The position numbers and the translations under genes are program-made. Shown one piece after another: positions 5,415-45,602 of a DNA stretch of 64,000 nt. The number at the start of each line of letters is the position of its first letter. The stretch's first letter is position 1. The notes beneath the pieces were generated by a model that saw only the letters and a list, made by a program, of their open reading frames with translations, was not told where the DNA came from and ran no database searches. Source of the stretch: a bacterium (GTDB lineage Bacteria > Hinthialibacterota > Hinthialibacteria > Hinthialibacterales > Hinthialibacteraceae); NCBI GenBank assembly GCA_963663405.2, contig CAXXSM010000004.1:29450-93449 (forward strand). The letters are read 5' to 3'.

Positions 5415-5418
5415 CTAG

Positions 5419-27356: not shown

Positions 27357-27553
27357 TAACTAAATACGGTTAAGGATCAGGATACATCAATTTTTGAGCA
27401 GAAGTGATATCAATTTGAATATGAAAATAAACTAGCAATTGATTTGATATAAAAAATCCTCACAAATAATAATGACATAAATTAAACTGGTCACTGAGTT
27501 GAAATTATCCAAAGATTTATAAACCATACATTCTTACTTGGTCTAATGATAAA

Positions 27554-28033
27554 ATGCCCTCAACAAAAGACCATCAACACGCTGCATTCACGCAGAATTT
27601 CATCGAGGCGATGAAGAAACAACAATACTCTTTGGTTGGCTGTGAGATCATGTACAACCATTACGGGGATCGGGGCGTAATTGATGTTGTACTTCGCAAA
27701 GATTATGTGGACCAGAAACGATCGACATGGTTGATCTGTGAAATGAAACCTCGGCTCTACGATATTGGTGAAACCATCCGGCAAGTTCACCGGGCGGAGG
27801 AATATTTCTGTCGCGCGCGGCCGGATATGAAGATGCAAGGTTGGGAGAATGAATATCGTTTTATCCTGGTTCTAGAAGCGGATAAGCAGAATCTGCATCA
27901 AGTCCAATGTCAGCACAGGGATCTCTTTGCTGGGATTGATGTGATGTATCACCACAGTGATTCTCATCAGATCGATGCAATTGAACGTATGAGTGAGATC
28001 ATGAATGCGATTTTGACCGTGCAAAACCACTGA
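27554..28033 (+). CDS. Small PD-(D/E)xK nuclease-fold protein
   Basis: E...GDRGVIDV...ICEMKP...Q...Y pattern; preceded by CCAAAGA-TTTATAAA (27509-27523). Confidence 0.7.
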   Translation: MPSTKDHQHAAFTQNFIEAMKKQQYSLVGCEIMYNHYGDRGVIDVVLRKDYVDQKRSTWLICEMKPRLYDIGETIRQVHRAEEYFCRARPDMKMQGWENEYRFILVLEADKQNLHQVQCQHRDLFAGIDVMYHHSDSHQIDAIERMSEIMNAILTVQNH

Positions 28034-28045
28034 TTTACTAACCCA

Positions 28046-29269
28046 TCAAATTTTCGTTTGATCGATATCCAGCAAGCTAATTCTCAAAATTTTCTTCTCC
28101 AAATCCTGAATCCGCTGGGCGATCAAATAGCCTTCTTTCTTCCAGACTCTCGCTATTCGAATTTTCTTGAGCGCTTCCTCTATTCTTCCAGTCAGAAGAT
28201 TTCTCATGGAATCACGCAACGATTGATTGATCGCGATTTCCCGATTCTCAATCCTCGTTTCTAACTCCTCGATTTCCGATTCCAATCCAACCTTTTGTTG
28301 TTCATCCAGTATTTCTTTTTTCAATTTTCTTCGTTCTTTAAGACTCATTTTTTCCATCAATTGGCGCTGTTTTGCAGAAAACAGACTGGAATCCAGAGCC
28401 AGGAGACGTTCATTAAGTGTTTTGAGAGAATCCAGTGATTTCTTCAAATAGCGGTTCGATTGAAACGTCATTTGTATTTTCTGAGCGAGCAAGGATCTTG
28501 CCCGGGGATTTGCCCCATAATGTTGAATGGCAGAATCCAGTTCATCAAACGATGCCTTTGTCTCTTTCATATTGGACAGCATTTTTTTGATTCCTGGAAT
28601 ACCGAGTTTCTTCAAAGAGTTCGCTTCAGTAGCTAATTCTTCATTTGGGATTCGATTGAAATGATTTTGGGAGAGTTTGCGTAATTTGACCTTCAGAGTT
28701 TTATCCGGATTCCTTACACTCATCTTTGCAAGCGCTTTCAGCAGAAAAACAAGAAATACGATTACAAGAAAAGGATATAGAAAGGGATTGATTGTACTTG
28801 ATAAGTCATACAAGTTAGGATCGATGGTTGTGACCACCAACATCGTCACAATCAATGTCAAAAGAAAAGAGAGAATCGGATTCATTTTCAAATACAAAAA
28901 ACTGTGATAGACCATAATCCCAAACAGAAACGTTAAAAGGACGATCGCCACCGTTCCGAATGAAGAAAGAGTAAAGTGATATTTCTTTTCCACAGAGATC
29001 ATGGAAAAAGCCAATGCCAATCCAATCCCCAAACTGACCGCCCTGCCCGCTCTACCCGGAAATTTCTTTCGGAGACTGAAATGAGCGATTCCAATAAAGA
29101 CAAGAGCAAAGACGAAAAAATCGATGACAGTGGAATAACGAAGATAAACATGGGTTGGATCAAAGATGGTTTCCCATGGAGTCAAAGCAGAAAATCCATT
29201 GGGAATCGACGATCTTGTGATTACCCACGCGTGATGATCTATCCCATTTGCGATTCGATTTCCAATCAT
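28046..29269 (-). CDS. Multi-pass membrane protein with C-terminal coiled coil
   Basis: About five hydrophobic helices then ~220 aa charged helical region; ATG at 29269 lies 31 nt after a TATA motif (29293-29300). Confidence 0.85.
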   Translation of the reverse strand: MIGNRIANGIDHHAWVITRSSIPNGFSALTPWETIFDPTHVYLRYSTVIDFFVFALVFIGIAHFSLRKKFPGRAGRAVSLGIGLALAFSMISVEKKYHFTLSSFGTVAIVLLTFLFGIMVYHSFLYLKMNPILSFLLTLIVTMLVVTTIDPNLYDLSSTINPFLYPFLVIVFLVFLLKALAKMSVRNPDKTLKVKLRKLSQNHFNRIPNEELATEANSLKKLGIPGIKKMLSNMKETKASFDELDSAIQHYGANPRARSLLAQKIQMTFQSNRYLKKSLDSLKTLNERLLALDSSLFSAKQRQLMEKMSLKERRKLKKEILDEQQKVGLESEIEELETRIENREIAINQSLRDSMRNLLTGRIEEALKKIRIARVWKKEGYLIAQRIQDLEKKILRISLLDIDQTKI

Positions 29270-29346
29270 GGATTCATATTTGTTCCTACTCAAATATAAA
29301 TTTTACGATTGGAAATCCGTACAAAATTCGATTGAACTGTGAGAAG

Positions 29347-29486
29347 ATTTCTCATGGAAACTTATTTTCGGTTGTGATATGTATGAAAAAAAATTGGATT
29401 ATTGAATGTATGTTTTTGTTTTCTATATAGTAAGTAATAAAAGAAGTAACAATTAACTTATTTTATAATTACGTTCCACAGGAAAT
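29347..29486. promoter_or_regulatory. Putative archaeal-type origin: inverted mini-ORB pair flanking an AT-rich element
   Basis: GTTCCACAGGAAAT on + (29473-29486) and TTTCCATGAGAAAT on - (29347-29360); ~110 bp very AT-rich between; directly upstream of cdc6. Confidence 0.6.
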
Positions 29487-29525
29487 CTTCCCTTACAGTT
29501 CTCTGTTTTCACTCTTTCAGGACAA

Positions 29526-29540
29526 AAGAAGATTTAAATA
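29526..29540 (+). promoter_or_regulatory. BRE+TATA-like motif upstream of cdc6
   Basis: AAGAAGA-TTTAAATA, 32 nt before an ATG that has no Shine-Dalgarno site. Confidence 0.6.
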
Positions 29541-29564: not shown

Positions 29565-30836
29565 ATGAGTCAGAAGATTTCCTATGGAACCGGTACATCT
29601 ACCTCGACAGCGAGCACAGAATCCCTGATACAAGAAGCGTTTCTCCATATCGAAGACAAGAAAATCACGCTGAATCCTTCCTATCTCGATGACGAAAAAC
29701 TGACGGAATCCGAACGGGTGACGGTTCTGCAGGAGATCTTTCAGCGCAATATCCGCCAGCAACAACTGCATCGATTGGCCAAATACTTGTCCCCGGTGCT
29801 CGCCGGTGATTCGCCGGCCAATCTCCTGATCTACGGCCCTTCCGGGGCGGGCAAATCGGTCACCTGCCTACATTTTCTCAACGCTTTGGCTTCCATGTGC
29901 GGCGTCAAACAGATCCAGTTTCAGTATTATTATGTGGATCTCACCACTCCGAAAACTTGTTTTGGCGCCTTGAACGAGCTGGCCTTATCCCTAGATGGGA
30001 CTACCAAACGGTACCGTAAGGGCATCGCGCTGGACCAGATGCAGGAGACTGTCATCCGGGCGCTGACGGCCCGCCATGATCTGGTCTGCATTGTGGTGGA
30101 CGAGGTCGACAATATCACCTCCAACAGCGATCTCTTTTACACATTTTTAGCCAAAACCTTGCCCAAACGGATTCCAGTCCGCCTGTTTTACCTCTTGTTG
30201 ACCAACCGGATCGAATGGGATAAAACCCTTGATCCCCGAATTCTCTCCGTGCTCAAAAAGACGGATATCATTTTTGAGCCCTACGACGCTATGGATCTAA
30301 TTGAAATCTTAAATCTCCGAGTGGAGAAAGCCCTCGACACCCGGAAAGTCGATCCCGCGGCGATCCGGAAAATCGCCGCGTACGCGTCACGGGAGAATGG
30401 CGACGCGCGCAAAGCCATCGAGTTGCTGGTCAAAGGAGTCAAAATCGCCGAAGATTCGACCGGTTATTTAGGCGTCCGTGAAGTGGACGAAGCGGATTCC
30501 TTGCTGGAGATCGACAAAACCGAACAGTTAATCCACGCTCTCGCGCCTCAGCAGAAATGCGCTCTCTTAGCCTGCTATACAGGGTTGCAAAACTCACGAG
30601 AAAAACTCTGGACCGGGCCCGCCTATGATATTTATCGATCCATTTGTGACCGGCGGAATGTGCGAACACTCACGCAGCGGCGGTTCTCCGATATCGTCAG
30701 TTTTTTGGATATCTACGGTTTGATCAACGCCCGGGTGATCTCAAAGGGGCGCTACGGAAAAACCCGGGAGCTGTCTTCCTCTCTCCCAGAAAAAGTCGTT
30801 CAGAAGGTCTTCAAGACCTGCGAACAGAATCTTTAA
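29565..30836 (+). CDS. cdc6: Archaeal-type Orc1/Cdc6 replication initiator (AAA+ plus winged helix)
   Basis: IYGPSGAGKS, VVDEVD, LDPRILS, FEPYD...LIEIL..R, GDARKAIELL, LTQRRFSDIVSFLDIYGLINARVISKGRYGKTR. Confidence 0.93.
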   Translation: MSQKISYGTGTSTSTASTESLIQEAFLHIEDKKITLNPSYLDDEKLTESERVTVLQEIFQRNIRQQQLHRLAKYLSPVLAGDSPANLLIYGPSGAGKSVTCLHFLNALASMCGVKQIQFQYYYVDLTTPKTCFGALNELALSLDGTTKRYRKGIALDQMQETVIRALTARHDLVCIVVDEVDNITSNSDLFYTFLAKTLPKRIPVRLFYLLLTNRIEWDKTLDPRILSVLKKTDIIFEPYDAMDLIEILNLRVEKALDTRKVDPAAIRKIAAYASRENGDARKAIELLVKGVKIAEDSTGYLGVREVDEADSLLEIDKTEQLIHALAPQQKCALLACYTGLQNSREKLWTGPAYDIYRSICDRRNVRTLTQRRFSDIVSFLDIYGLINARVISKGRYGKTRELSSSLPEKVVQKVFKTCEQNL

Positions 30837-31072
30837 TCGTTCATTACCGGAAACAATGAATGTTCCATTTTCTCAATGGTTCGTAAGGTGGACCGAAGAG
30901 TGGTTTCTTCGAACCGGATCTCTGATGAATTCTTTTGAGGATTTCGGTGTAATTTATTTAAGCGATTGCGACTCGCATCAACCATATTGCGCAGATCTCT
31001 GATTCTCTGAATAGTAATCCAATCCAGTGGTTCACTCACTAAAAAAGTCCGGTCTTCAAAGCAGGGATTCAT
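30833..31072 (-). CDS. Small coiled-coil hypothetical protein
   Basis: Start overlaps the stop of the upstream gene 31069-31377. Confidence 0.6.
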   Translation of the reverse strand: MNPCFEDRTFLVSEPLDWITIQRIRDLRNMVDASRNRLNKLHRNPQKNSSEIRFEETTLRSTLRTIEKMEHSLFPVMND

Positions 31073-31377
31073 GGTAGACGGTTAGGGATCGATGGATGGG
31101 GAGGAGACTGTGTCGGCTGATATCCTGACTCTGGTTTCTTGAGTATGAGCACCTCATAAGACTTTTTAAGAACCAGGATCGCCTTGGGGATATCATTGAT
31201 ATCAAGCCGGTGTGTGCTTTTAAAATGACCGCTTTCATCCTTGTAGATCCGTTCCACCGCGACTTTCGCGCTGGTAAACGATTTACCATCGGTGGATTGA
31301 TGTGGATTCATCCAGATAGCGGCGCGAACCGCCCCGGCTTTAAATTCCATCTCCGGTTTAGCGGCTATTCCATTCAT
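31069..31377 (-). CDS. Putative PC4-like ssDNA-binding protein
   Basis: PE.EFKAGAVRAAIW.N...VERIYKD..G.FKST..L...DIPKA.LVL.K.YE; GGTGAT RBS. Confidence 0.7.
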   Translation of the reverse strand: MNGIAAKPEMEFKAGAVRAAIWMNPHQSTDGKSFTSAKVAVERIYKDESGHFKSTHRLDINDIPKAILVLKKSYEVLILKKPESGYQPTQSPPHPSIPNRLP

Positions 31378-31629: not shown

Positions 31630-32403
31630 ATGATCATTACACGAAGGAATCCAAATCCTCTGATTGCGGCGATCGATCGTGTTCACGATCGAGTGACAAC
31701 AATCCAGACCATTGCGCGGAATTTTTACTTGGCAGTGCTGCGGATGCGCTACCGGTGCCCCCACTGCGGCCAAAAAATGAAGGTTCACTCTCCTACGACA
31801 TGGCGATGTTCCTGTGGCGTTCAACTCGATCCGACAATCGAGTTTCAACCAAGCCCCTGTTGCAAAGCCAGGTTAACGAAGAAAGTGTATCATTACGTCT
31901 GTACGCAATGCGGCGCTGCGGTTCCGTCCAAATTTCTCTTCGATGAAAGGCTGTTCGACGCGGACTATTTCAGAGAGCGGATGAAAGAATCACGGGAACG
32001 GAAACAACAACTCCGGGAGAGGCTGAGAAAACAACTTGCTGATTCCCGCTCGAAAGAACTGGAATTGGAGGATTATCCCCAATTGGACACCATCCCAGGA
32101 TTGGAACAAGATTTAAACCGGTTGATTGGAACCGAATCGGGGAATGATGTGTTTGCGTTTAATCGTTCGGAGACGTTCTGCATGACCGATTATCACCGAG
32201 CCATTTCCACTCTTGTCAACCAGCGCGGTGTGCTCTTTTCACAAATCCCCGCGTTGCATCCTTCCACACCGAAGGATCGAATCTGGCGGTTTATCACCTT
32301 GATTTTCATGGAACATGACCGGGAAGTCCATTTGCGGCAAGAGGGGGATGATATCTGGGTGTTCAAACGGGATTGCGATGAAGAGATCGAAAACCTTAAA
32401 TAG
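31630..32403 (+). CDS. Multi-Zn-ribbon protein with ScpA/kleisin-like C-terminal winged helix
   Basis: CPHC, CSC, SPCC, CTQC; C-terminal RFITLIFMEHDREVHLRQEGDDIWV. Confidence 0.75.
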   Translation: MIITRRNPNPLIAAIDRVHDRVTTIQTIARNFYLAVLRMRYRCPHCGQKMKVHSPTTWRCSCGVQLDPTIEFQPSPCCKARLTKKVYHYVCTQCGAAVPSKFLFDERLFDADYFRERMKESRERKQQLRERLRKQLADSRSKELELEDYPQLDTIPGLEQDLNRLIGTESGNDVFAFNRSETFCMTDYHRAISTLVNQRGVLFSQIPALHPSTPKDRIWRFITLIFMEHDREVHLRQEGDDIWVFKRDCDEEIENLK

Positions 32404-32770: not shown

Positions 32771-33185
32771 AATGGCTTCGACAAAAATCGAGATCAATCA
32801 CAACACGATAGCCCGGTTAGAATCCGCGGATGAGTTGGCGAGAATTCTCTTTCCAGATAACTCTAATCATCAAAAGATTTTTCTATCGATCTTTGTGGAA
32901 CTGAAATGGGCCAAGGATCAGTTCTTGCCGGTCCTGGATCCCATCGTGGATCAACTGGGACTGAGCCGCCGGAGTTTGGAAACGGTTCGCGCCAAAATGC
33001 GGCGAATGGGGCTGATCGATCATGTCTCCCGGTTCAACAAAACCTACGGCTATCGGGAAGGCTGGGTGTTTTCAAACAAATTTCCCCGGGCCTTAGTGAA
33101 AGTGGCCAATTTAGTTCTAAAATTCCGTGAGAAGAAGGATTCCGTCCAGGAACAGAAAGAAAGGGATCTGATATTTTACCTTTGA
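32742..33185 (+). CDS. Winged-helix DNA-binding protein
   Basis: IVDQLGLSRRSLETVRAKMRRMGLI; alternative start at 32772. Confidence 0.8.
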   Translation: MPINPTAPNKMASTKIEINHNTIARLESADELARILFPDNSNHQKIFLSIFVELKWAKDQFLPVLDPIVDQLGLSRRSLETVRAKMRRMGLIDHVSRFNKTYGYREGWVFSNKFPRALVKVANLVLKFREKKDSVQEQKERDLIFYL

Positions 33186-35418: not shown

Positions 35419-35588
35419 GCTGATAACACTCATTGGAGCCAAGAATAAAGACGAACAGCTCTTAAGCTAAATAGATCCGCCTTCTTTTTGTTTTAAGAGA
35501 TGATATGAACATTGTTACCCACCAACGCTGCAGAGAATCAATTTATGTTACTAGGTTTTACCATTTTAGCGAACGTATCAAGCGATAT

Positions 35589-36329
35589 CTAATTTTTCAA
35601 TTGATTGAAGCGATTGGGATTAGCGTTGTATAAATCATTGGCTAGATGTTCAATGAATTGGTAGGGATCTTGGTTCGTCATTAATATCCTCAAGTGTCCA
35701 GTATCCTGAAAAAATAATTCTCTTTGACGTGGATCAATTGCCTTTTTTGAAAGAAAAAAGAAACAGAAAAAACCACCCAACATTATTCCCACCCATGCAG
35801 TTTCATCAATATCTGACATTCCTATACAGTGTATCATATTAGATGTGATGTCGATATGCTTTGAGGAATAGAGTATGACACACCCGTAAGTTTCTGTATC
35901 CCCTGGCACCTCCGAAAGGAGCATATTCCTGATAGTAGTCTCATGTTTTCCTAGGTTAATAGATGAGAATCCGTCTTGTGTACTTATTCCAACACGCCAA
36001 AGGATCGAAAGTTGAAATAATTTAAACTTTTTATAATCAATTTCACATTCAAAACCTTTTGCACTTTTTGTTGTGGTAGCAATGCATTCTCTCTCATATA
36101 GAACTTTGTGAGCATAACCTTCCCATTGGCTTAATTTGTTTTCACAATTCTTACATAATAATTTTTCACGGATTCCTTTTTGTACAATACGAGGATGCTT
36201 CCTATGCTCCGTGGAGAGAATATTAAAGCGATGCTTGCAGTCATAAAGCTGCATTTTTTCGTAAAAGAATTCCGGAATCACATGCGAGTTACATAGTTTT
36301 GCTTGTTGTAAGCATAGACGGCATTTCAT
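35589..36329 (-). CDS. HNH-like Zn-binding endonuclease-family protein (cargo)
   Basis: CRLC...SHVIP...LLCKNCEN; AT-rich gene. Confidence 0.7.
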   Translation of the reverse strand: MKCRLCLQQAKLCNSHVIPEFFYEKMQLYDCKHRFNILSTEHRKHPRIVQKGIREKLLCKNCENKLSQWEGYAHKVLYERECIATTTKSAKGFECEIDYKKFKLFQLSILWRVGISTQDGFSSINLGKHETTIRNMLLSEVPGDTETYGCVILYSSKHIDITSNMIHCIGMSDIDETAWVGIMLGGFFCFFFLSKKAIDPRQRELFFQDTGHLRILMTNQDPYQFIEHLANDLYNANPNRFNQLKN

Positions 36330-36506
36330 AATATCGTACATTCTTTGCAATCTTTCGTGAACATCACCTTATTAGTATAAATTCTTTTAGAGGTAGTCGA
36401 TCAGAGAATCCTACTTTTAAATTATTTGATTCAGCATACCTTTATCATCAGTTCCAACTGTCAGGCTTGCCAACTTATAACGATATTTTTTACATAAATA
36501 TCACCA

Positions 36507-37412
36507 TCAATTAGCTTTATAGTTAGAGTGCTTGATCTGTGTCACACTCATGTCGCTGTGTATTTGATAAATATATATGTGAAAGTTCTCACCACTAATA
36601 TTTAGTTGGTTCTCGGCATCATCCTGAAGTTCCTTAATACTATCGTAAGAAAGGTTAAGTGGATTGAAGAGCATACTGCGAACCACAACAAGAACTGCGT
36701 CAGCTTCTTTAATGCTAACTTCCATATATCCCAATCTTGCCTTGATTGATCTAGCTTCCATTGATGTAGAAACACTTGGTGCAATCACGGCTACGCGTAG
36801 TCCAGACGATGTAGTATTTTGCTGATCTGAAACATGTGGTGGCTGTTGTGTGGTTCTTGAGCTATCTCCCGCTTGCGCAACAGTAATTAAAAGTAGTTCC
36901 ACGTGTTTGCGTAATACCTCCTTTTCTTCATCTGTAAGTTTATGTAATCCCATTTCATGTTGATTAGCTGGAGGGAAAATATTGTCAAATGTAAGTAACA
37001 CTTTGCCTGGAGTCATGTTGGCTTGTTTCAAACTTAACTCCATATGCAAAAGTTCTTCCAAAGAGTATTGCTTCCAATCAATGTCTTTTTTTGAAGTCTG
37101 CACTATTCGCTTTGCAGTGTTTATCCTCGCTTCAGCATCAATTAACTGTTGCAAGGAGGAATTTTGCCAATCAAGGGTGATCGCGTGTTCGCGTTTGATT
37201 CTTGCCACAGTGTCAAGCCGCAATTCAATGTTAGATATTTCAAGAAGGGAAGCGTTTCGCCAGTCAACATCTATGCCATGGGTTTTCTTGATACGTAAAG
37301 CGGCGCTTTCACGCATATGAGAATCATCTATCTTTGATTGTCCATCTACATAAGTGATGGTAAAAAAGAAAAAAGTGATAAAAGTTGGAAGTAGTTTTAA
37401 ATATGTTCTCAT
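36507..37412 (-). CDS. Secreted hypothetical protein with three ~31-aa repeats (cargo)
   Basis: Signal peptide MRTYLKLLPTFITFFFF; repeats RI......DW...SL..L...E; GGAGG RBS. Confidence 0.75.
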   Translation of the reverse strand: MRTYLKLLPTFITFFFFTITYVDGQSKIDDSHMRESAALRIKKTHGIDVDWRNASLLEISNIELRLDTVARIKREHAITLDWQNSSLQQLIDAEARINTAKRIVQTSKKDIDWKQYSLEELLHMELSLKQANMTPGKVLLTFDNIFPPANQHEMGLHKLTDEEKEVLRKHVELLLITVAQAGDSSRTTQQPPHVSDQQNTTSSGLRVAVIAPSVSTSMEARSIKARLGYMEVSIKEADAVLVVVRSMLFNPLNLSYDSIKELQDDAENQLNISGENFHIYIYQIHSDMSVTQIKHSNYKAN

Positions 37413-37663
37413 TTCAATCAATCCTCCCTTGAGTACTTGATGCATCAGTTCTGTCTACTTCATACAATTGGAAAAAGAGTACGAGAATGACTTTGATTAA
37501 TTGGCCACTCTTATAATTGTTATTTTTTGTGACGCGATCAATTCAATTATGGTTTCTTTTTTATTATAGGCTCAAATAAATGGAGTATACAAGCTGGAGG
37601 TATCAAAAAATAATATATGTAAGATTTACGAACATTTACAGTTTTTTTAATTTCACACATTAA

Positions 37664-37689
37664 CCTGGCTCTTTTGCCAGGATTTTTTT
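37664..37689 (+). terminator. Terminator-like hairpin before the AAA gene
   Basis: CCTGGC-TCTTTT-GCCAGG + T7. Confidence 0.65.
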
Positions 37690-37706: not shown

Positions 37707-38801
37707 ATGAATACTATCACCTGTCAGCTTTGTGGAGAGTCAATCCATGGCTCCTTGTATGGTCACTTGGGTGAATGTCACCGTACAACAGCGCAAGAGT
37801 ACCTGAAGCAATATCCGGGCGCGCCTTTGGTGGCTCCCGAATTACTCAACCAGATTCAATCCGGCAAAACCGTCAAACGAACACCGGTTCAAGCCACAGC
37901 GGAATTCCGGATACATGACGCGGCGCTCAAAAAGAGAAATGGCGCAAATCCGATAGTGCCTAACTCTGATCCGCATTACCAATTCCCGCCCGAGGCCGCT
38001 TACCTGATCCACTCCATCAACCACCAGGAAAACGTGATGATCGTCGGTCCGACCGGCACAGGGAAAAGTTCGCTGGTCATGCAGCTCGCCGCCCAGACCA
38101 ATACGCCTTTGCGGCGCTGCAACCTAAATGGCGAGACTACGGTCTCTGATTTCTTGGGACGCTGGACTGTTCGCGGCAAAGAGATGGTCTACAGCGAGGG
38201 CATCCTGCCCACCGCCATGAAGAATGGAGATTGGTTGCTGCTCGATGAGATCGACGCGGCGCTGCCGAATATTCTATTCGTGCTCCAAAGCGTGCTCGAA
38301 GAATGCGGCAAGCTCACACTCCTTGAAAAAGACGGCGAGATTATCGCTCCCCATCCCGATTTTCGCATCATCGCCACTGCCAATACGCTTGGTAATGGAG
38401 ATGAGTCCGGACTATACGCTGGAACGCAGATACTCAACGAAGCCTTCAAAGACCGCTTTGACACAGTCATATATTTGGACTACCCGGATGAGAAGACCGA
38501 AACCGAAATCCTCTCTCAAAAAGTCTCCAACCTAAAAAAGACTGACATCAGACGACTGGTGAAATGCGCTCGCCAGGTCCGGGAAGCGGCGGAACGCGAA
38601 GAGTGCTATTGCAGTTTTTCCACCCGTCGCTTGCTCGCATTCGCCAGGAAATACGATCAACTCGGTAATTTAACTAAAGCGTTGGAACTGACCGTTCTCA
38701 ACAAACTCTCCCGTGATGACCGGCGCGTCGTTGAAGAAATCGCGCAGCGGCGACTGGGAGATCTCATGAATCCCCAACCGAAAGGAGCAAATGAATCATG
38801 A
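37707..38801 (+). CDS. MoxR/CbbQ/CobS-like AAA+ ATPase, intact
   Basis: Zn finger C..C...H...H, GPTGTGKS, LLLDEID, IATANT, FSTRRL. Confidence 0.92.
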   Translation: MNTITCQLCGESIHGSLYGHLGECHRTTAQEYLKQYPGAPLVAPELLNQIQSGKTVKRTPVQATAEFRIHDAALKKRNGANPIVPNSDPHYQFPPEAAYLIHSINHQENVMIVGPTGTGKSSLVMQLAAQTNTPLRRCNLNGETTVSDFLGRWTVRGKEMVYSEGILPTAMKNGDWLLLDEIDAALPNILFVLQSVLEECGKLTLLEKDGEIIAPHPDFRIIATANTLGNGDESGLYAGTQILNEAFKDRFDTVIYLDYPDEKTETEILSQKVSNLKKTDIRRLVKCARQVREAAEREECYCSFSTRRLLAFARKYDQLGNLTKALELTVLNKLSRDDRRVVEEIAQRRLGDLMNPQPKGANES

Positions 38802-40679
38802 AGAATCTAAGCGGATTAGAAACAACCTTGGAACGTGTTGGTCGAATCTTGTCACGCAAGTACAACATCTCGGTCCAATGCAAAGGAAACGAATGCAAGA
38901 CCGACGGCCGGACTATCTGGCTGCCGGCGCTGCCGGACGAGATCTCTGAGTCGTTATGGAGTTTGGTCCGTGGCGAGCTGGATCATGAGACCGCCCATAT
39001 CCTCTTCAGCGACTTTGATGGCCGCATGAAGAATTTCAAACAGAAATGGGGCGATTTCGGATTCGACACACTTAATGTCATTGAAGACGTGAGAGTCAAT
39101 TACGCCATGCAGAAGGAGTATCCGGGTTCCCGTCACAACATCCTGCACAGTATCGCGGAGATCACTCGTACCCATCCCATCGATCAAATGCCTCTCCCAG
39201 TCCGGTTCTTGTGTGGTCTGTTCCTCGCTGGAATGGATCTGCTCTATGACCAGTATGGCGAAGACGCGATCGGAATGGTGGAACAATTCAAGAACGATGC
39301 GGAGCGGTTCAAATCCCTCCGTAACACTGACGAAGCCTGCGCAATGGCGGAAAGTATCCTGGAACGCCTCAAGCATAAAGCTGAGCAAGAAAGACAACCT
39401 TCAAATTCAAAGCAGCAAAATAGCGCGGAAAAGAACCAAGAATCACACTCACAATCCTCATCCGGTGAATCCAAACAAGAATCAACAGAGAAGGAGCAGC
39501 GATCAGCAAAATCCGCTTCCTCTAACGGTCAAGAAGAATCTGACAATCGGCAAAACAGTTCTGGGGAACAAAAGGATGATTCTATGGATAAACAAAAATG
39601 GTTCTAGTTCAGATGCGCATTCAAACATGAAAAGCAGTCCACAAGATGAATCTGAGAATGGAAATCAAGGAGCTATGGAGCAAGCCCTACACGGACAATA
39701 CTCATCCACCGGCCATCCATTCGAGCTCCAAGGCACTATCAGAGAGCAAGTCCAAGAAGAATTCAGCAATGGAACAAACCAAGCCTACCGGGTATACGAT
39801 CCATCGCTGGATAAAGCTGTCACGCCTCTATCATTGGATAACGGTGAAACCTATCAAAACCTGAGCAATGTCGTTCGGCCTCATGTAGGCGCTCTTCGTC
39901 AGCAGTTGATTCGAACTCTCCGCTCGCGCGATACCCGGTTCTGGGTCAACGACCAAGAAGAAGGCCAGGTCAATAGCAAAAGGCTTTATACGCTACTCAA
40001 CCAGGGCTCGAACAAAGTCTTCCGACAAATCCAGGAATGCGAATCGGACTCGGTGGCGGTGTCGCTTCTTATCGATCTATCCGGCTCGATGAACGGCCCA
40101 CGCATCTACCTGGCCCGCCAGGTCGTCATTCTGTTCGCTGAAACACTCAACCAGCTGCGTATCCCGTCAGAGGTGATCGGTTTTACAACCGAGCCTTCCA
40201 AACGGGCCTTCGCTCGATTGACACGGGAAACGGGGATGGATTTGCAACAACTCTCCACACTCTACACCCGTTTCTTTCCCTGTGTCTATTCCATCTTCAA
40301 GGCGTTCGACGAACCATTCCGAGCGTTGAAACCGCGCGTTCCCGCCATGAACGCCCTGGAGTACACGCCCATCGATGACGCTATCATTTTCGCCGCTAAA
40401 CGGATCGTCTTTCGGAAGGAAACGCGAAAAATCATCCTTGTCCTTACCGATGGAGAACCGTATAGCGGAAATCCAACGATGCAGCTGGCTGTCATCAAAC
40501 ATCTTGTAGAAAATCTGCGCAAATGCGAACAGGCCGGAATCGAGTGTGTGGCCGTTGGCATCCAAGCGGATTACGTAAAGAATTTCTTCAAAGAGAACGT
40601 AGTCGTTCAAAACCTGCCCGAACTCCCCAAAGCGTTCTACACGAAGTTCTCGGAATTGCTCCGCAGAAACCGCAAATAA
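38798..40679 (+). CDS. CobT-like HExxH + vWA protein; one frameshift near 39595 in an A run
   Basis: LDHETAH; DLSGSM; LTDGEP; two overlapping ORFs join in the linker. Confidence 0.88.
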
Positions 40680-41608: not shown

Positions 41609-41747
41609 AAGGAATTATCTTCCATATTGAAAATTATTAGTGGACATAATCCAGCTGGATTCTCTGAATTATTTCATGCTTTTACTTACTTCGATGAGAT
41701 CCTCCAGCCAACTGGTCCAACGGTGGCCAGTTAGCCGGAGGATACAA

Positions 41748-42596
41748 ATGAAACCAAACCAAAATACCAAAGATCGGATCCAACAAAGCCGGAAAATCAT
41801 CCAGGAGACCATCGCCAAATTGGGGGAACAGCTGGAGAAAGGATACTCCATTGAGATGACTCGATACCTGAAAACCATGGCGCTTTTCCATGCGTACTCC
41901 ACCTCCAATCAGTTTCTCATTTTGGCCCAGCGCCCCGAAGCCACGCAAGTCGCCGGATTTCAAACCTGGAAACGCCTCCATCGATCCATTAAACGCGGCG
42001 AAAAAGCCATCCGCATCCTCGCTCCGGTTTGCTACAAGAAGAAAACAACTTCAACACAGTCAAAAGAAACAAAGCAAGAAGACTCGAAAGAGCCAGTCGA
42101 GGAAGACCTAATATATTCCTTCCGCACGGTCTGTGTTTTCGATCAAGCACAGACGTATGGCGCAAAACTACCGGAACCGTTTCGGGCACAAGGTGAAGCG
42201 AGGCAATGTCTTTCCATGCTGGAGCAAACTGTCCGAAGAAATGGAATCCAACTTGATTATGGATACACAGGCCGGGCGTACGGCTATTCCAAAAAAGGAT
42301 CCATTACGATCAAAAAGGGGATGAATTCCGCGGAAACCTTCGCTGTGCTCGCGCATGAGTTTGCCCATGAATTGCTTCATCAAAGACAAACGTCCAACGA
42401 TTCCTGCTCGTTGCGTGAATTGGAAGCTGAAGCCGTCGCCTGTGTTGTCTGTGAACGGTTCAGCGTACAGGCTATCCAAGCGTCGTCCGATTACATCCGT
42501 CTCTGGGAAGGTGACAAAACCAAGCTACTCAATCGTCTGGAGAAGATCCGCCGATGCGCATCCACAATCATTACTCAGATCGAATCTCTCACATAA
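41748..42596 (+). CDS. ardC: ArdC-like ssDNA-binding / metallopeptidase antirestriction protein
   Basis: FHAYS..NQ.LI..Q.P.ATQVAGF..W......IKRGEKAIRI.AP; VFD..QT.G; HEFAH; ELEAE; GGAGG RBS. Confidence 0.85.
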   Translation: MKPNQNTKDRIQQSRKIIQETIAKLGEQLEKGYSIEMTRYLKTMALFHAYSTSNQFLILAQRPEATQVAGFQTWKRLHRSIKRGEKAIRILAPVCYKKKTTSTQSKETKQEDSKEPVEEDLIYSFRTVCVFDQAQTYGAKLPEPFRAQGEARQCLSMLEQTVRRNGIQLDYGYTGRAYGYSKKGSITIKKGMNSAETFAVLAHEFAHELLHQRQTSNDSCSLRELEAEAVACVVCERFSVQAIQASSDYIRLWEGDKTKLLNRLEKIRRCASTIITQIESLT

Positions 42597-42840: not shown

Positions 42841-44823
42841 TTATTTTACAAAATCTTGGACTTGTTTCACTTTGATGGGGATCTTTGTATTCGTTTCCTC
42901 AATCACTTTTAATATCTGATTCTGCGCCTCTGAATTGGTGGTTAGAATAAAAATACCTCGATAATCTCCCGCTAGATTTTTACGAATATTTTCCCGCCAA
43001 TTTGATTTTCCCGTTTCGATCTCTACTGCGATTCTCTGGCCATTCTTTTCCGCCACAAGATCGGTATATCCATGGCCGGATTCTTCTTTCGTTACAGTCC
43101 AACCCAAATGAACGAATTGTTGCGCGGCTTTCTCTTTCCAAAATTCATGTTCCAGACTGCCCCAACGAGATTTATCCGGAACATCAAGATCCATATTTCG
43201 TAGACAGACTCTGCCCTTTGGCGTTAATCCCAACAGAACCGTTTTCCCGCTGTGTGTCCGTATCTCTTCCGGTACGATCAATCCTTTTTCGATGCATGAT
43301 TCCCGAATTACGTTTCCTTTCCGGCGGCTTAGATGAAGATGCCGGTACCGTTCCACCGCGCCAAACAGTGGATTCTGAAACACATTGATTAAAAAGGTTT
43401 TTTCATTCTCATTCAATTCAACAGTGGTAGCATCCTCATCACCATTTACGATCTCATCATAATCAGCATAGGGATTCAGGATATTCCGTTCTACCATGTG
43501 CTGCGCCAAAGCGGTATCGTTCACCGAACCTTTAGGGATTTTTCGATGGGGAATCGAGATCTCAAATGGTTGCAGCCAACGCCCCTGGAGTTTGACGACT
43601 GCTCGACCGATTGGCAGCCGGCCCAATAATTCCCGCTCTTCATTGTCAATCAGCATCGCCCCTCCCGCCGCGTTGACATCGGACCGGTGTTTCAGATTCA
43701 TGCAAATCGTGGCGTAGGTGTTACCCATCGCGGGAATCGAGATCAAACTCGGATGCTGATCCACCAATACGATCCCTTCTCCCAGTTCCCGGATTTCACG
43801 GAGAATGGTGTCTGTGATCGCTTCACCGCCGCTTCCGGCGCCGGATCGTTTCAATAAAATATGATGGGCTTCCTCGATGATCATGGCGTGTTTGAAGGTC
43901 TCCCGGTCCGGCTGCGTCAAACGATAATGATGAATCCAAAGCAAGAGAGACTCGATCGTGAACGTTTTATCCGCATTCGTCAGGCTATCCAATTCCAAAA
44001 TTACATTTTGGTTTAAGAGATCCCCCACATTCGATTGAACGCTGGTGTTCATCACGTTTCCCATATGCCCAAAACAGATCGATCGAACACCCCGCAGGGC
44101 GGAATCCATCCATTGCGCTTTTCGCCCTTTGACTGGATGTTTTTCGAGCCATTCCAGAACATCTTGAAAGGTTGGATATTTAGGTGGATTTCCTTTGTAC
44201 ACATTGAAGGAGTGATACACCGCATCGATCGCTTCCTGGAGAAGATACATGACGCCTTCTCCCAAGTAGTAGGAGTGAGCGATAATCTCGATCATTTTTT
44301 TGAGCCAAACCGCCGCGCTGGTTCCTTCCGGAGGAATCAGTGGATTGAACGCGAAGGGAACGGTCTGCCCTCCAACTGTATAAACCAAGATTTCATCCTT
44401 CCGCACGGATAAAAGATCCCGGTAATTCCGCTTCCAGTCAAACAAAAGGAACGGCTTTTTTTGATCCAGCAAACTCTCCAGAAGGACAAACACCGTATTG
44501 GTTTTTCCCGCTCCCGACCGGCCAAAGATCGCTGTATGTTGAATCAGTTCATCTTCCCGCAGCCCAAATGCATGAAGCGGCCGATCGCAATAGACCACCG
44601 AACCGAGGTTATATTGGCCAAATGCTTTATCCGCTGGCGGCGCGGATAAATGAACATCAGGAACCTGAACGTTCACGCCCAGGTGTTGAGCGGCTAACAA
44701 CTGTAACGCGATCTCCAATTCCTGTTTCCCGCGATTGTCCTCGGCCAGATAGGCCAACCACAATCGATCCGCTCGATCGCCTAACACGGGTTTCAGCTTC
44801 CGGCATAATTCATAAACCTCCAT
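42841..44823 (-). CDS. HerA/VirB4/TrwB-like P-loop ATPase with C-terminal winged helix and PD-(D/E)xK-like domain
   Basis: HTAIFGRSGAGKT, FDWK, FNPL, IIEEAH, REIRELG...DQHPS; YTDLV...IAVEIETG; AGGTGAT RBS. Confidence 0.88.
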   Translation of the reverse strand: MEVYELCRKLKPVLGDRADRLWLAYLAEDNRGKQELEIALQLLAAQHLGVNVQVPDVHLSAPPADKAFGQYNLGSVVYCDRPLHAFGLREDELIQHTAIFGRSGAGKTNTVFVLLESLLDQKKPFLLFDWKRNYRDLLSVRKDEILVYTVGGQTVPFAFNPLIPPEGTSAAVWLKKMIEIIAHSYYLGEGVMYLLQEAIDAVYHSFNVYKGNPPKYPTFQDVLEWLEKHPVKGRKAQWMDSALRGVRSICFGHMGNVMNTSVQSNVGDLLNQNVILELDSLTNADKTFTIESLLLWIHHYRLTQPDRETFKHAMIIEEAHHILLKRSGAGSGGEAITDTILREIRELGEGIVLVDQHPSLISIPAMGNTYATICMNLKHRSDVNAAGGAMLIDNEERELLGRLPIGRAVVKLQGRWLQPFEISIPHRKIPKGSVNDTALAQHMVERNILNPYADYDEIVNGDEDATTVELNENEKTFLINVFQNPLFGAVERYRHLHLSRRKGNVIRESCIEKGLIVPEEIRTHSGKTVLLGLTPKGRVCLRNMDLDVPDKSRWGSLEHEFWKEKAAQQFVHLGWTVTKEESGHGYTDLVAEKNGQRIAVEIETGKSNWRENIRKNLAGDYRGIFILTTNSEAQNQILKVIEETNTKIPIKVKQVQDFVK

Positions 44824-44825
44824 TT

Positions 44826-45422
44826 TTATCGATCACCTGACAGCAGATAACCTTTGCGATTCTCCTGGGAAAACTCGCGCATAACTTCGCGTAAATCGCT
44901 TTTTAACCGGGTGATATCTCGCCAGCACGCCACCGATTCCATCCGCTTCTCACGTTCAAACGCAATCATCTCCCGTTCGAGATTGGAGCGCAGTTTATCG
45001 ATGTTGGGATTCAGGCCGATGGGAATGTAGTAGATTTCATACAGTTTCTGGGAGATGTAACAGGAATCCCGATCGATCCGGTAACAGTTCGTATCCCGTA
45101 AATATTCTCGTTCATAAATCATCCCCAAAATATCTTCCACGCTTTTCGATAAAAACGCTTTCTTATCCGCCAGAAAATGGTTGATCGGATCCCTCGTTTT
45201 TTCAGATCGGATTCCATCAGTCAGCGCATCCAGATGAGTGGGGGACAAAACTTTGTCCGAGTCAATCTCTCCAGAGTAAGTTTCCGGTTGTTTAAGGGAC
45301 AAGGATTTAGATTGGGAATAAACCGATGAAGAAGGATTCAAATAATCCGTTCTCGATTCCAAGCCCATATAAGGCGTATGTTGATTGTAGTTTGATTGTC
45401 CGAAATTCAATGTAATCACCAC
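44826..45422 (-). CDS. Hypothetical coiled-coil protein, co-oriented with the ATPase
   Basis: Second copy at 63597-63980; CGTAACA-TTTATATA at 45470-45456. Confidence 0.8.
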   Translation of the reverse strand: MVITLNFGQSNYNQHTPYMGLESRTDYLNPSSSVYSQSKSLSLKQPETYSGEIDSDKVLSPTHLDALTDGIRSEKTRDPINHFLADKKAFLSKSVEDILGMIYEREYLRDTNCYRIDRDSCYISQKLYEIYYIPIGLNPNIDKLRSNLEREMIAFEREKRMESVACWRDITRLKSDLREVMREFSQENRKGYLLSGDR

Positions 45423-45602
45423 GGCTGTTGTTTCTATATAGTGGTGATGAAGTGATATATAAATGTTACGATTTTGAGCCGAAAAATCTACAATCCTCTT
45501 ACAACATAGTATTTTTTTTTTTACTTATTCATGGCTTATATCATAATACCTAAAAATTACAAAATAAGAAGCCATATTTTTTCTATGTTTTGTGATTAAC
45601 AC

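What the first reader, a model, noticed from the sequence alone, without database searches (positions are those of the whole stretch)
27500..45480. Bacterial integrated element with an archaeal-type core (Orc1/Cdc6, ORB-like origin, BRE-TATA promoters)
Seen: an intact Orc1/Cdc6 gene, a flanking inverted mini-ORB pair, repeated BRE+TATA-like motifs, GGTGAT-type RBSs, and small Zn-ribbon, winged-helix, ssDNA-binding-like and membrane proteins. These are interleaved with clearly bacterial DNA (ECF sigma/FecR, GGAGG sites, intrinsic terminators). Known: Orc1/Cdc6-ORB replicators and TBP/TFB promoters are archaeal, while bacteria use DnaA and sigma factors. Inference: an archaea-derived or cross-domain mobile element whose cis-signals have not decayed, so they may still be used or were acquired recently. 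No MCM, TBP, TFB, core integrase or T4SS is in the window, so how it replicates, is transcribed and moves is open. I cannot confirm it is undescribed.
Basis: partly seen in the sequence, partly recalled or inferred. Interest (0 to 1): 0.95.

Follow-up and report, generated by a model that had tools for sequence, protein, structure and literature searches.

The report
Bacterial element with archaeal-type replication origin
A repeated mobile element in a bacterial genome carries a replication-initiator gene of the archaeal kind right beside the DNA boxes such proteins bind, and the same layout recurs in many other bacteria, so it is an old bacterial lineage and not a fresh import from archaea.

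Summary
The core observation is real. Window 27507-45475 is one of at least 4 copies (88-91% nt identity) of a mobile element in this 8.4 Mb bacterial MAG. It encodes a canonical Orc1/Cdc6 (TIGR02928 246 bits, cut-off 181; best solved relatives are the ORB-bound Orc1-1 initiators). Three 17-nt ORB-like boxes sit at -222(+), -91(-) and +8(+) of its ATG, and the inverted pair flanks a 114-bp AT-rich stretch.

This layout recurs around homologous genes down to 34% identity. In 26 metagenome loci, 58 of 106 box hits fall in a 301-bp zone (4 expected). An AT-rich central element and a TATA-like box at a fixed offset are also conserved.

The gene belongs to a diversified bacterial clade (Hydrogenedentota, Desulfarculia, one cultured Desulfocarbo). 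It is about 30% identical to archaeal plasmid genes and evolves at dN/dS 0.04. The genome shows DnaA but no TBP, TFB or true MCM.

This copy is degenerate: no integrase, a frameshifted CobT-like gene and a 2.25 kb insertion. Best reading (0.5): an integrative plasmid-like element with an Orc1-ORB replicon and an unknown helicase. Main rival (0.27): an Orc1-centred regulatory switch.

The parts
27507..45475 (.). This copy of the repeated element. Both limits are limits of homology to the other copies. The left one is a truncation.
   Evidence: 27507-35424 and 37675-45475 match C141, C110 and C86 at 88-91%; the flanks of the other copies are alike among themselves and unlike the window's. Logan contig X1 record 1 (940 nt, 0 differences) bridges 26723-27662.
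27554..28033 (+). 159-aa ORF of unknown function. It is cut at the 5' end relative to the 216-aa gene of the C110 copy.
   Evidence: no family; the C110 homologue at 46340-46990 is 216 aa. Homology in the window begins only at 27507.
28046..29293 (-). 415-aa protein of no known family. By eye it has a hydrophobic N-terminal half and a long charged helical C-terminal half. It is transcribed away from cdc6.
   Evidence: no family. Translation. Weak relatives in L054, L014 and L006.
28195..28211 (+). Fourth exact ORB-like box, inside the 415-aa gene.
29343..29359 (+). Distal ORB-like box (GAAGATTTCTCATGGAA), at -222 from the cdc6 ATG.
   Evidence: A box in the same orientation at -189 to -253 is seen in many related loci.
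29360..29473 (.). AT-rich spacer between the inverted boxes, a candidate unwinding region. It holds the conserved central element at 29421-29440.
   Evidence: Sequence. Central element TTCTATATAGAAAATAAATA (up to 5 of 20 mismatches) in 20 of 27 loci, 46-69 nt before the inverted box. Shuffles: mean 0.45, maximum 2 of 300.
29474..29490 (-). Proximal inverted ORB-like box (GAAGATTTCCTGTGGAA on the - strand), at -91.
29533..29540 (+). TATA-like box TTTAAATA, 42 nt after the inverted box and 24 nt before the ATG. There is no Shine-Dalgarno between it and the ATG.
   Evidence: 17 of 27 loci have TTTAWATA (up to 1 mismatch), 16 of them at offset 39-48. Shuffles: mean 3.2, maximum 9 of 1000.
29565..30836 (+). 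orc1/cdc6, 423 aa, with intact ATPase and winged-helix motifs.
   Evidence: invariants include G91, G94, G96, K97, D179, E180, T213, N214, G279-R282, R372, R373, G395, R396 and G398. dN/dS 0.04.
29573..29589 (+). Start-proximal ORB-like box. It overlaps codons 3-9 here and lies just before the ATG in other loci.
   Evidence: positions -22 to +17 in related loci.
31069..31377 (-). 102-aa protein of no known family. It recurs right after cdc6 in some relatives.
   Evidence: No Pfam hit. Homologues at 35-63% in L014, L054, L055 and L063. No match in PLSDB.
31630..32403 (+). 257-aa double Zn-ribbon protein, a conserved partner of cdc6.
   Evidence: 60 relatives at E up to 1e-5. Invariant Cys pairs. 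Present in 6 of 9 genome loci. No PDB or PLSDB match.
32772..33185 (+). 137-aa probable winged-helix protein, the most conserved partner. The ORF as listed starts at 32742; relatives start at the Met at 32772.
   Evidence: 782 relatives, of which the best 120 are listed: 5 near-identical (96-99%), the rest 59-71% identical. Present in 8 of 9 genome loci. Lies next to Cdc6-like genes in G015, G017, G030 and G031. dN/dS 0.03-0.04. Weak wHTH hits.
35425..37673 (-). 2.25 kb low-GC insertion special to this copy, with two ORFs (253 and 312 aa) of no family.
   Evidence: gap in homology. (GC 0.36-0.40). (no Pfam); contigs of X1, X2 and X3 join 35418/35424 to 37674-37700.
37707..38801 (+). CobS/MoxR-type AAA+ ATPase.
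   Evidence: AAA_5 1.8e-24. phrog_249 2e-73. dN/dS 0.02-0.05.
38798..40679 (+). CobT-like VWA protein, frameshifted here between 39596 and 39660.
   Evidence: residues 1-266 and 288-626 of the intact 626-aa C110 protein lie in two frames. The gene is intact in C110 and C161.
41640..42596 (+). ArdC-like protein: ssDNA-binding N-domain plus a zincin-like peptidase.
   Evidence: ArdcN 2.3e-11. phrog_7245 'anti-restriction protein' 4e-16.
42841..44823 (-). 660-aa HerA/FtsK-type P-loop ATPase, a candidate DNA translocase.
   Evidence: DUF87 5.9e-11 and TraG P-loop 3e-5. CedD 2.8e-19, well under its cut-off. The nearest plasmid relatives are mostly bacterial, at 27-29% identity. A homologue lies beside the cdc6 trio in L062.
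44826..45422 (-). 198-aa protein of no family, upstream of the ATPase in one operon. A TTTCTATATAG motif sits at 45431-45441.
   Evidence: Homologues in L012 and L062. A further partial copy lies at 63609-64000.

Best explanation
The interval is a degenerate copy of an integrative, plasmid-like mobile element of a bacterial lineage. The nearest named relatives of its genes are Hydrogenedentota.

Its conserved core is a replicon of archaeal design. An Orc1-1-type Orc1/Cdc6 initiator binds ORB-like boxes. Two inverted boxes flank a 114-bp AT-rich segment directly upstream of the gene, and this is where the duplex would be opened. A third box over the start of the gene would let the protein repress itself.

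After excision by a tyrosine integrase, the circle would replicate from this origin. The integrase is present at the end of the C110 copy and lost here. The genome holds no MCM. A bacterial helicase, or the element's own HerA-type ATPase, must therefore be recruited, perhaps through the conserved Zn-ribbon and winged-helix partners. The ArdC-like protein and the HerA/FtsK-type ATPase would serve transfer and establishment.

Shown: the gene family, the boxes, their conserved layout, purifying selection, bacterial hosts, multi-copy status and patchy spread. Inferred: binding, origin firing, excision, the helicase and the roles of the partners.
For: - Canonical Orc1/Cdc6 with intact motifs.
- The closest solved relatives are the two Orc1 initiators crystallised on ORB DNA. 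The C-terminal winged-helix stretch is nearly the same as in Sulfolobus Orc1-1.
- Four exact 17-nt boxes cluster within 1.4 kb, against 0.73 expected at up to 2 mismatches.
- The box core equals the Pyrococcus ORB core (PMC1904270 passages).
- The +/-/+ layout recurs. In 7 genome loci, 11 of 20 hits fall in 1.7% of the sequence (0.34 expected, P 4e-15). In 26 metagenome loci, 58 of 106 hits fall in 3.8% of the sequence (4.0 expected, P 1.5e-53), and 24 of 26 loci have at least one hit.
- The layout is kept even where the partner genes are missing and at 34-41% Cdc6 identity. The invariant unit is therefore initiator plus boxes.
- A conserved AT-rich central element occurs in 20 of 27 loci.
- dN/dS is 0.04 for cdc6 and for the 137-aa gene, at dS 0.3-0.4.
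- Mobile context: at least 4 copies, an integrase at the C110 end, TIGR02928 over its cut-off in only 5 of 41 related genomes, varied defence cargo and a Replic_Relax gene in the Desulfarculia loci, and ArdC and HerA-type genes.
Against: - No experiment bears on binding or firing.
- No MCM or other archaeal replisome part was found. The PF00493 hits reach at most 30.5 bits, and that model also rings in all 10 bacterial control genomes.
- No circular form was seen. There was no back-joint in the contigs of 4 runs and no terminal overlap in 27 whole contigs.
- Every family member whose replicon could be judged is chromosomal: chromosomes of 4.8 and 6.5 Mb, and an 8.2 Mb contig.
- None of the 100 plasmid rows shown was bacterial.
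- A published precedent exists for an Orc1/Cdc6 homologue on an integrated element that acts as a regulator and not as an initiator (PMC10123103 abstract).
- No copy in this genome was seen complete. The window copy lacks the integrase and has a broken CobT-like gene. The C110 cdc6 has an indel near its 3' end.
- No att repeats were found.
Confidence: 0.5

Rival explanations
1. The Orc1/Cdc6, the winged-helix protein and the Zn-ribbon protein form a regulatory switch of the element, deciding between maintenance and excision or transfer, perhaps in response to DNA damage. The boxes would be operators and not an origin. Replication would be left to other genes or to the host.
For: - PMC10123103 (abstract) describes a three-gene module in haloarchaeal proviruses: a wHTH repressor, a small protein and an Orc1/Cdc6 homologue. 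It controls integrase expression.
- The trio here has the same make-up.
- One box lies over the gene's own start, and another lies 42 nt before a conserved TATA-like box. That is a typical operator position.
- All judged instances are integrated.
- Desulfarculia relatives carry a separate Replic_Relax gene.
Against: - The protein is far closer to cellular ORB-binding initiators (1.7e-45 over its full length) than to the SNJ2 protein (24% identity over 53% of the length, AAA+ part only).
- The inverted boxes flank a conserved AT-rich segment, as in origins.
- The box layout persists in at least five loci with 4 kb or more of flank that lack both partners: L060, L066, L069, L071 and L076. L071 had no box hit at the 3-mismatch threshold.
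- The two roles are not exclusive.
Confidence: 0.27
2. One reading: a recently acquired archaeal or cross-domain element whose BRE/TATA promoters and ORB origin are still read by archaeal-type machinery.
For: - A TTTAAATA box with an A-rich stretch before it lies 24 nt upstream of a start codon that has no Shine-Dalgarno.
- The box is conserved at a fixed offset in 17 of 27 loci.
- The nearest labelled non-bacterial relative in the tree is a Micrarchaeota Cdc6.
Against: - There were 0 hits for TBP and TFIIB in the genome, while all 4 archaeal controls rang. The genome is 82% complete.
- The gene sits in a deep clade whose labelled members are all bacterial.
- Identity to archaeal plasmid genes is about 30%.
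- dS between resident copies is 0.3-0.4.
- The partner genes are absent from 72,556 plasmid records, including the archaeal Orc1 plasmids.
- The ATPase's relatives are mostly bacterial.
- Other element genes have GGAGG-type sites.
Confidence: 0.03
3. The module is an anti-phage or anti-plasmid defence system built on an ORC/Cdc6-clade ATPase. BrxC and DUF499 proteins are examples of such ATPases.
For: - ORC/Cdc6-clade ATPases are common in BREX-related systems, and HerA/FtsK partners recur there (PMC12839542 passages).
- The relatives lie among defence cargo.
Against: - PADLOC gives only a P-loop-level hit for Cdc6 (mad8, 3.9e-4) and a Csa3 hit at 0.0031 for the winged-helix partner. It gives nothing for the Zn-ribbon partner.
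- The architecture is the plain initiator one, with no effector domain.
- Specific boxes sit at its own gene in dozens of loci.
Confidence: 0.05
4. Assembly or binning artefact: an archaeal contig piece joined to bacterial DNA.
For: The genome is a MAG of 170 contigs, and the region is a mosaic of repeats.
Against: - A separate assembly bridges the left junction without a difference.
- The same gene and boxes lie in two complete bacterial chromosomes and in a cultured isolate.
- The window itself holds IS91-type, ECF sigma/FecR and prepilin-type genes.
Confidence: 0.02

Closest known systems
Archaeal Orc1-1/ORB origins (Sulfolobus oriC, Aeropyrum, Pyrococcus oriC)
   Same: - Initiator architecture, and the closest solved relatives.
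- Box core ATTTCC..TGGA (PMC1904270 passages).
- Inverted boxes around an AT-rich stretch, next to the initiator gene.
   Different: - The host is a bacterium with DnaA and without MCM, TBP or TFB.
- The flank of the box is C-rich, and not the G-string of the long Pyrococcus ORB (judged by eye).
- Extra conserved partners are unknown in archaeal plasmids.
- Origin activity is untested.
Orc1/Cdc6 replicons of archaeal plasmids (for example pNRC200, pHM300, the Methanosarcina barkeri plasmid, pCaT2)
   Same: An initiator of the same family on a mobile replicon.
   Different: - Only 22-32% identity.
- They fall in other parts of the tree.
- Those are free plasmids, whereas every member of this family that could be judged is integrated in a bacterial chromosome.
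SNJ2-type Orc1/Cdc6-centred three-gene switch of haloarchaeal proviruses (PMC10123103, abstract)
   Same: An Orc1/Cdc6 homologue plus a wHTH protein plus a third small protein, on an integrated element with a tyrosine integrase.
   Different: - The SNJ2 protein aligns with the AAA+ part only, at 24% identity.
- No homology of the partners was tested or seen.
- Here the boxes have an origin-like layout.
Integrative and conjugative or mobilisable elements of bacteria, including actinomycete elements that move DNA with a single FtsK-like ATPase (recalled)
   Same: Tyrosine integrase at one end (C110 copy), ArdC-like gene, P-loop translocase, defence cargo, many copies and patchy spread.
   Different: - No relaxase, T4SS or known bacterial Rep protein was found in the window copy.
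- The initiator is of the archaeal type.

Membership tests
Orc1/Cdc6 initiator family (TIGR02928) | AAA+ module with Walker A/B and sensor motifs, a lid domain and a C-terminal winged helix | tested here: met
   Invariant motif residues.
Orc1/Cdc6 initiator family (TIGR02928) | Score above the curated family cut-off | tested here: met
   246.1 bits against 181.3.
Orc1/Cdc6 initiator family (TIGR02928) | Orthology with an archaeal chromosomal ORC1-type equivalog (NF001625 and others) | tested here: not met
   The best equivalog, NF001625, scores 238 bits against a cut-off of 501.
Orc1/Cdc6 initiator family (TIGR02928) | Binds origin boxes and starts replication, loading MCM | not testable with these tools
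   No true MCM in the genome. Binding is untested.
Archaeal ORB-type origin | Repeated boxes with the TTCC...GGAA(A) core | tested here: met
Archaeal ORB-type origin | Inverted boxes flanking an AT-rich unwinding stretch next to the orc1/cdc6 gene | tested here: met
   By strict ranges, 10 of 26 metagenome loci show the inverted pair.
Archaeal ORB-type origin | Long-ORB extension with a G-string | tested here: inconclusive
   The flank after the core is conserved (TTTAC TC.CC.AC) but C-rich. It was compared by eye with the ORB1-3 sequences.
Archaeal ORB-type origin | Origin activity (autonomous replication, marker frequency) | not testable with these tools
   Only contigs of runs were on hand.
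Archaeal BRE/TATA promoter | TATA box TTTAWATA with an A-rich element before it | tested here: met
   At 29533-29540. Found in 17 of 27 loci, against 3.2 expected. The BRE part was judged by eye only.
Archaeal BRE/TATA promoter | TBP and TFB present to read it | tested here: not met
   0 hits for PF00352 and PF00382. The controls rang in 4 of 4 archaea. The genome is 82% complete.
Archaeal BRE/TATA promoter | Transcript start about 25 nt after the box | not testable with these tools
   No raw RNA reads were on hand.
Integrative (conjugative/mobilisable) element | Integrase at an end | tested here: inconclusive
   Absent from the window copy. PF00589 at 5e-32 lies next to the left end of the C110 copy. 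The C47 copy diverges before that point.
Integrative (conjugative/mobilisable) element | Flanking att repeats | tested here: not met
   No shared word of 14 nt or more between the C110 integrase end and the far side. The true ends are not defined.
Integrative (conjugative/mobilisable) element | Relaxase or transfer ATPase | tested here: inconclusive
   No relaxase in the window. The HerA/DUF87 ATPase has weak TraG/VirB4/TraD hits. Replic_Relax is present in L007, L012, L059 and L062.
Defence systems with ORC/Cdc6-clade ATPases (BREX-related) | Match to a known defence protein model | tested here: not met
   PADLOC gives only mad8 at 3.9e-4 for Cdc6 and Csa3 at 0.0031 for the winged-helix partner. 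It gives nothing for the Zn-ribbon partner.

The most novel reading that the evidence does not exclude
A widespread family of bacterial mobile elements replicates through a hybrid pathway. An archaeal-type Orc1/Cdc6 recognises ORB-type boxes and opens an AT-rich origin. With no MCM present, it hands over to a bacterial helicase or to the element's HerA-type ATPase, through bacteria-specific partners (the Zn-ribbon and the 137-aa winged-helix protein). The archaeal box-A-like TATA element, kept at a fixed distance from the box, would be a working part of this origin-promoter unit in cells that lack TBP and TFB.
Probability: 0.3. Interest if true: 0.9.

Novelty: new variant of a known kind. Interest (0 to 1): 0.72.

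Why it matters
Orc1/Cdc6-ORB initiation is treated as a hallmark of archaea and eukaryotes, and DnaA or plasmid Rep proteins as the bacterial way. Here a conserved, selected Orc1-plus-ORB unit rides on mobile elements in at least two bacterial phyla. One host is a cultured strain, Desulfocarbo indianensis SCBM.

This makes an old question directly testable: can an Orc1-type initiator work with a bacterial replisome, and what does it load when MCM is absent? It also offers a natural case for studying how initiator-origin specificity survives a change of domain. The box core is the same as in Pyrococcus, although the proteins share only about 30% identity with archaeal ones.

If the unit proves to be a regulator instead, it would extend the Orc1-centred switch of haloarchaeal proviruses to bacteria.

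Five searches of the held library turned up no description of such bacterial elements. Subscription journals and supplementary files were not searchable, so prior description cannot be excluded.

Tried and rejected
The folds of the 257-aa, 137-aa, 415-aa and 102-aa proteins, and any binding to Cdc6, therefore remain unknown.
The first Atlas call gave only unnamed bacterial clusters and an 'FdhE family' label at 0.94.
- Profile searches of the two partners against PDB sequences gave nothing below E 0.28. hhalign of the 137-aa family against the Cdc6 family gave probability 0.9%, so there is no relation.
- Naming tree neighbours. Three cluster look-ups of 30 proteins gave one useful organism name, a Micrarchaeota archaeon for the cluster of P0142. 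Most non-bacterial rows of the tree are therefore unlabelled. The host's own phylum name was not obtained; its DnaA cluster carries no name.
- Viral origin. Two scans of IMG/VR confirmed no relative (0 of 4 and 0 of 203 candidate stretches). The phage collection gave only 3 haloarchaeal virus records at 24-26%.
- Free plasmid form. None of the 100 PLSDB rows shown for Cdc6 was bacterial, though 334 or more records were not listed. The three partner proteins have no PLSDB match. None of 27 whole contigs has a terminal overlap. No back-joint was seen in the laid contigs. Contigs drop rare forms, so this does not show that circles are absent.
- Expression: no RNA holder listed.
- Att sites: none of 14 nt or more. 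No tRNA, Rfam family or tandem repeat in the window or interval.
- The loose 10-nt core with one mismatch was rejected as a test because it occurs 1.1-1.7 times per kb everywhere.
- Sigma-70-like promoter explanations for the TATA-like box were tried by eye and fit poorly. This is not a test.
- Supplementary files of papers were closed. The ORB alignments and the module tables of PMC1904270 and PMC10123103 could not be seen.

Full report
WHAT IS THERE. The window is G000:C4:29450-93449 of an 8.44 Mb MAG with 170 contigs, 82% complete and 2.4% contaminated. The window ends at the contig end.

Blastn of the window on its own genome shows that 27507-45475 is repeated at 88-91% identity on C141 (397-16260), C110 (46867-30595) and C86 (contig end to 26887). 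Partial copies lie on C47, C38 and C161. An older partial copy lies inside the window itself, at 5882-10945 with 81-84% identity.

They are not the ends of the element, for four reasons:
- The left flanks of C141, C110 and C47 are alike among themselves, and so are the right flanks of C141, C110 and C86. Both sets are unlike the window's flanks.
- In C110 the homology runs on for 235-395 nt. A tyrosine integrase then follows (PF00589, 5e-32), with a glycosyl-hydrolase-like gene after it.
- On the right, 48083-54082 (two FG-GAP proteins, ECF sigma, FecR and a prepilin-type protein) also travels with the C110 and C86 copies. It may be cargo or a preferred neighbourhood.
- No att repeat was found.

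STATE OF THIS COPY. The window copy is degenerate:
- It starts inside a gene that is 216 aa in C110 and 159 aa here.
- It has no integrase.
- Its CobT-like gene is split between 39596 and 39660. The gene is intact at 626 aa in C110 and C161.
- It carries a 2.25 kb low-GC insertion at 35425-37673. The other copies lack it, and contigs of three runs join across it.
- The C110 copy in turn has an indel near the 3' end of its cdc6.

A separate assembly of run X1 bridges the left junction (26723-27662) without a difference. Run X1 may be the source sample.

THE GENES. The annotated genes are:
- 29565-30836: a canonical Orc1/Cdc6.
- 37707-38801 and 38798-40679: a CobS/MoxR-type ATPase and a CobT-like VWA protein, a pair also found in phages (phrog_249 at 2e-73, phrog_1576 at 5e-50).
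- 41640-42596: an ArdC-like protein.
- 42841-44823: a HerA/FtsK-type ATPase. Its best curated match, far under the cut-off, is CedD. Its nearest plasmid relatives are mostly bacterial: 46 records, including Streptomyces 19, Lactococcus 5 and Halanaeroarchaeum 2.

The remaining ORFs have no family in Pfam, PHROGs, NCBIfam or PADLOC.

IS THE CDC6 ARCHAEAL OR BACTERIAL? The word-indexed search found 432 relatives among the 8000 candidates scored. The best 120 were 55-96% identical. The few that carried organism names were Hydrogenedentes, Thermodesulfobacteriota or 'bacterium', and some lay on contigs of up to 8.2 Mb.

The genome collection gave 9 loci:
- four Hydrogenedentota MAG contigs;
- two complete Desulfarculia chromosomes;
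- two scaffolds of the cultured Desulfocarbo indianensis SCBM;
- one uncultured bacterium.

Against 72,556 plasmid records there were 434 matches, all under 60% identity. The 100 rows shown (40 best, 60 spread) are all archaeal, at 22-32% identity. The exhaustive search of 50% representatives found 2773 at E up to 1e-3. After the family's own cluster (67%), identity drops to 45%, then 38-40%, then about 30%.

An IQ-TREE of 83 rows was built from the window, 9 bacterial loci, 4 archaeal plasmid genes and 69 of the 150 representatives. L020 and L021 were left out because they gave no tblastn hit. It places the window as follows:
- in a 7-row Hydrogenedentota-type group (SH-aLRT 97);
- inside a 14-row clade in which all labelled rows are bacterial (98);
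- inside a 19-row clade (98, stem 0.5);
- nested in a 31-row clade (100) that holds the cluster of a Micrarchaeota Cdc6.

The archaeal plasmid genes fall elsewhere. The FastTree of 127 rows agrees. Most other rows are unlabelled, so neither the direction of transfer nor bacterial monophyly is formally tested.

TIGR02928 passes its cut-off in 5 of 41 related genomes, which is a patchy spread. Between resident copies, dS is 0.29-0.41 and dN/dS is 0.04 for cdc6. This is an old, selected bacterial lineage. The copies may sit in one genome or in co-binned strains; the data cannot tell which.

THE BOXES. The 17-nt pattern read from the window has four exact hits, all within 28195-29589. Relative to the ATG they lie at -222(+), -91(-) and +8(+). 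The inverted pair encloses 114 bp of AT-rich DNA.

PMC1904270 (passages) prints the Pyrococcus sites: ORB1 ...TCATTTCCACTGGAACC and mini-ORB GATTTCCACTGGAGG. It states that 'TTCC' and 'GAA' are the perfectly conserved core. The start-proximal box of locus L006 contains GATTTCCACTGGAG, the same 14 letters as in the mini-ORB.

The window-derived pattern was then applied to loci it was not derived from:
- In 7 genome loci, 11 of 20 hits (up to 3 mismatches) lie in the 301-nt zone from -260 to +40. The expected number is 0.34, with binomial P 4e-15.
- In 26 metagenome loci with enough upstream sequence, 58 of 106 hits lie in the zone. The expected number is 4.0, with P 1.5e-53. Of the 26 loci, 24 have at least one hit, and 10 have the inverted pair within strict ranges.

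The loci are kin, so these P-values overstate independence. The spacers between the boxes are otherwise unalike.

Two more conserved elements emerged from 27 loci that have a proximal inverted box, out of 41 examined:
- A central AT-rich element, TTCTATATAGAAAATAAATA, occurs in 20 of 27 loci, 46-69 nt before the inverted box. Shuffles give a mean of 0.45.
- A TTTAWATA box occurs in 17 of 27 loci, and in 16 of them it lies 39-48 nt after the inverted box. Shuffles give a mean of 3.2 and a maximum of 9 in 1000.

The protein side fits. The best solved relatives are the two Orc1 proteins crystallised on ORB DNA, and the winged-helix stretch is close to identical to that of Sulfolobus Orc1-1. The motif residues are invariant in the family.

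THE PARTNERS.
- The 137-aa protein is the best conserved. It has 782 relatives, of which the best 120 are listed: 5 near-identical (96-99%), the rest 59-71% identical. It occurs in 8 of 9 genome loci, once in fragments. It lies next to Cdc6-like genes, even of a divergent clade, in G030 and G031.
- The 257-aa Zn-ribbon protein occurs in 6 of 9 genome loci.
- Among 36 metagenome loci, many of them short, the two partners were seen in 7 and 6 loci. At least five loci with 4 kb or more of flank have neither.
- None of the partners matches any PLSDB record.

The invariant unit is thus cdc6 plus boxes. The partners are bacterial-side additions in part of the family.

TRANSCRIPTION SIGNALS. The genome gave no TBP and no TFIIB, while all four archaeal controls rang. 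Its only MCM-model hits are weak AAA+ hits of a kind that ring in every control. It has a normal DnaA at 227 bits.

Several element genes carry GGAGG or AAGGAG sites. cdc6 and the 257-aa gene have none, and each has a TATA-like box 24-32 nt upstream. The conserved TTTAAATA box is therefore real. Its use as an archaeal promoter has no support, and its role in a bacterium is unexplained. I could not fit it to a sigma-70 pattern by eye, and no RNA data were on hand.

VERDICT. The 'recent cross-domain import read by archaeal machinery' reading is not.

The best account is an integrative plasmid-like element family whose replicon is an Orc1-ORB unit long domesticated in bacteria. The main rival is an Orc1-centred regulatory switch, as shown for SNJ2 proviruses (PMC10123103 abstract). 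The two may coexist. Five library searches found no description of bacterial Orc1/Cdc6-ORB elements. This does not prove that none exists.

Noticed in passing
window 11334-23428: A BREX-related (DUF499-type) defence cluster follows the older partial copy of the element. It comprises an SNF2 helicase with NOV_C, a DEAD/Helicase_C_2 helicase, a 235-aa ORF, a DUF1156 methylase read as two ORFs (17488-18357 and 18375-20528, so possibly broken) and a DUF499 ATPase. The same SNF2-NOV_C gene follows the cdc6 module in the Desulfarculia chromosome locus L007.
   Followed up: partly
window 25049-26611: A 520-aa protein fuses an N-terminal tyrosine-recombinase domain (Phage_integrase, 1e-37) to an IS91-type Zn-binding domain and a Y2 transposase. 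The 1.76 kb unit 25080-26836 has at least 15 other copies in the genome, at about 89% identity to this one.
   Followed up: partly
window 5882-10945 and 3303-5421: There is an older partial copy of the element's right half (81-84% identity), with its own broken CobT-like gene. It is preceded by a 580-aa gene that is 100% identical to C141:19467-21585. The contig is a mosaic of recombined element parts.
   Followed up: partly
window 54217-62931: A giant 2904-aa ORF with FGE-sulfatase, fn3, caspase (Peptidase_C14) and PKD domains. It contains internal repeats of about 1 kb at 56.3-58.9 kb and has a strong negative GC skew. Its N-terminal region resembles that of the 878-aa FGE-sulfatase protein at 45603-48239.
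   Followed up: no
window 63609-64000 (contig end): A third copy of the first two thirds of the 198-aa gene and its upstream TTTCTATA motif, 90% identical to 45051-42. It is cut by the contig end and is not followed by the ATPase gene.
   Followed up: no
window 45476-48082 versus C110, C141, C86: In the other copies only the first 150-330 nt of the 878-aa gene (48083-48415) lie about 107 nt from the element's right limit. In the window the whole gene is present. Either the gene is variable cargo or it is a hot spot for rearrangement.
   Followed up: no
L012 (Desulfocarbo indianensis) and L007 (Desulfarculia chromosome): A Replic_Relax (PF13814) gene lies about 4.5 kb downstream of the cdc6 trio on the other strand. 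Homologues are in L059 and L062. Nearby cargo includes a DncV-like cyclase (CBASS-type), a KAP NTPase, TatD and caspase-domain proteins.
   Followed up: partly
G030:C293 and G031:C251 (loci L023, L021): A divergent Cdc6-like gene of about 365 aa scores 57-128 bits on TIGR02928, under its cut-off. It lies directly after a homologue of the 137-aa winged-helix protein (57-58% identity). The partner is therefore shared with a second Cdc6-like clade.
   Followed up: no
window 42841-44823 and 27554-28033: By eye, the C-terminal 100 residues of the HerA-type ATPase and the 159-aa ORF each show a D...E.K pattern of the restriction-endonuclease-like kind. No tool was run on this.
   Followed up: no
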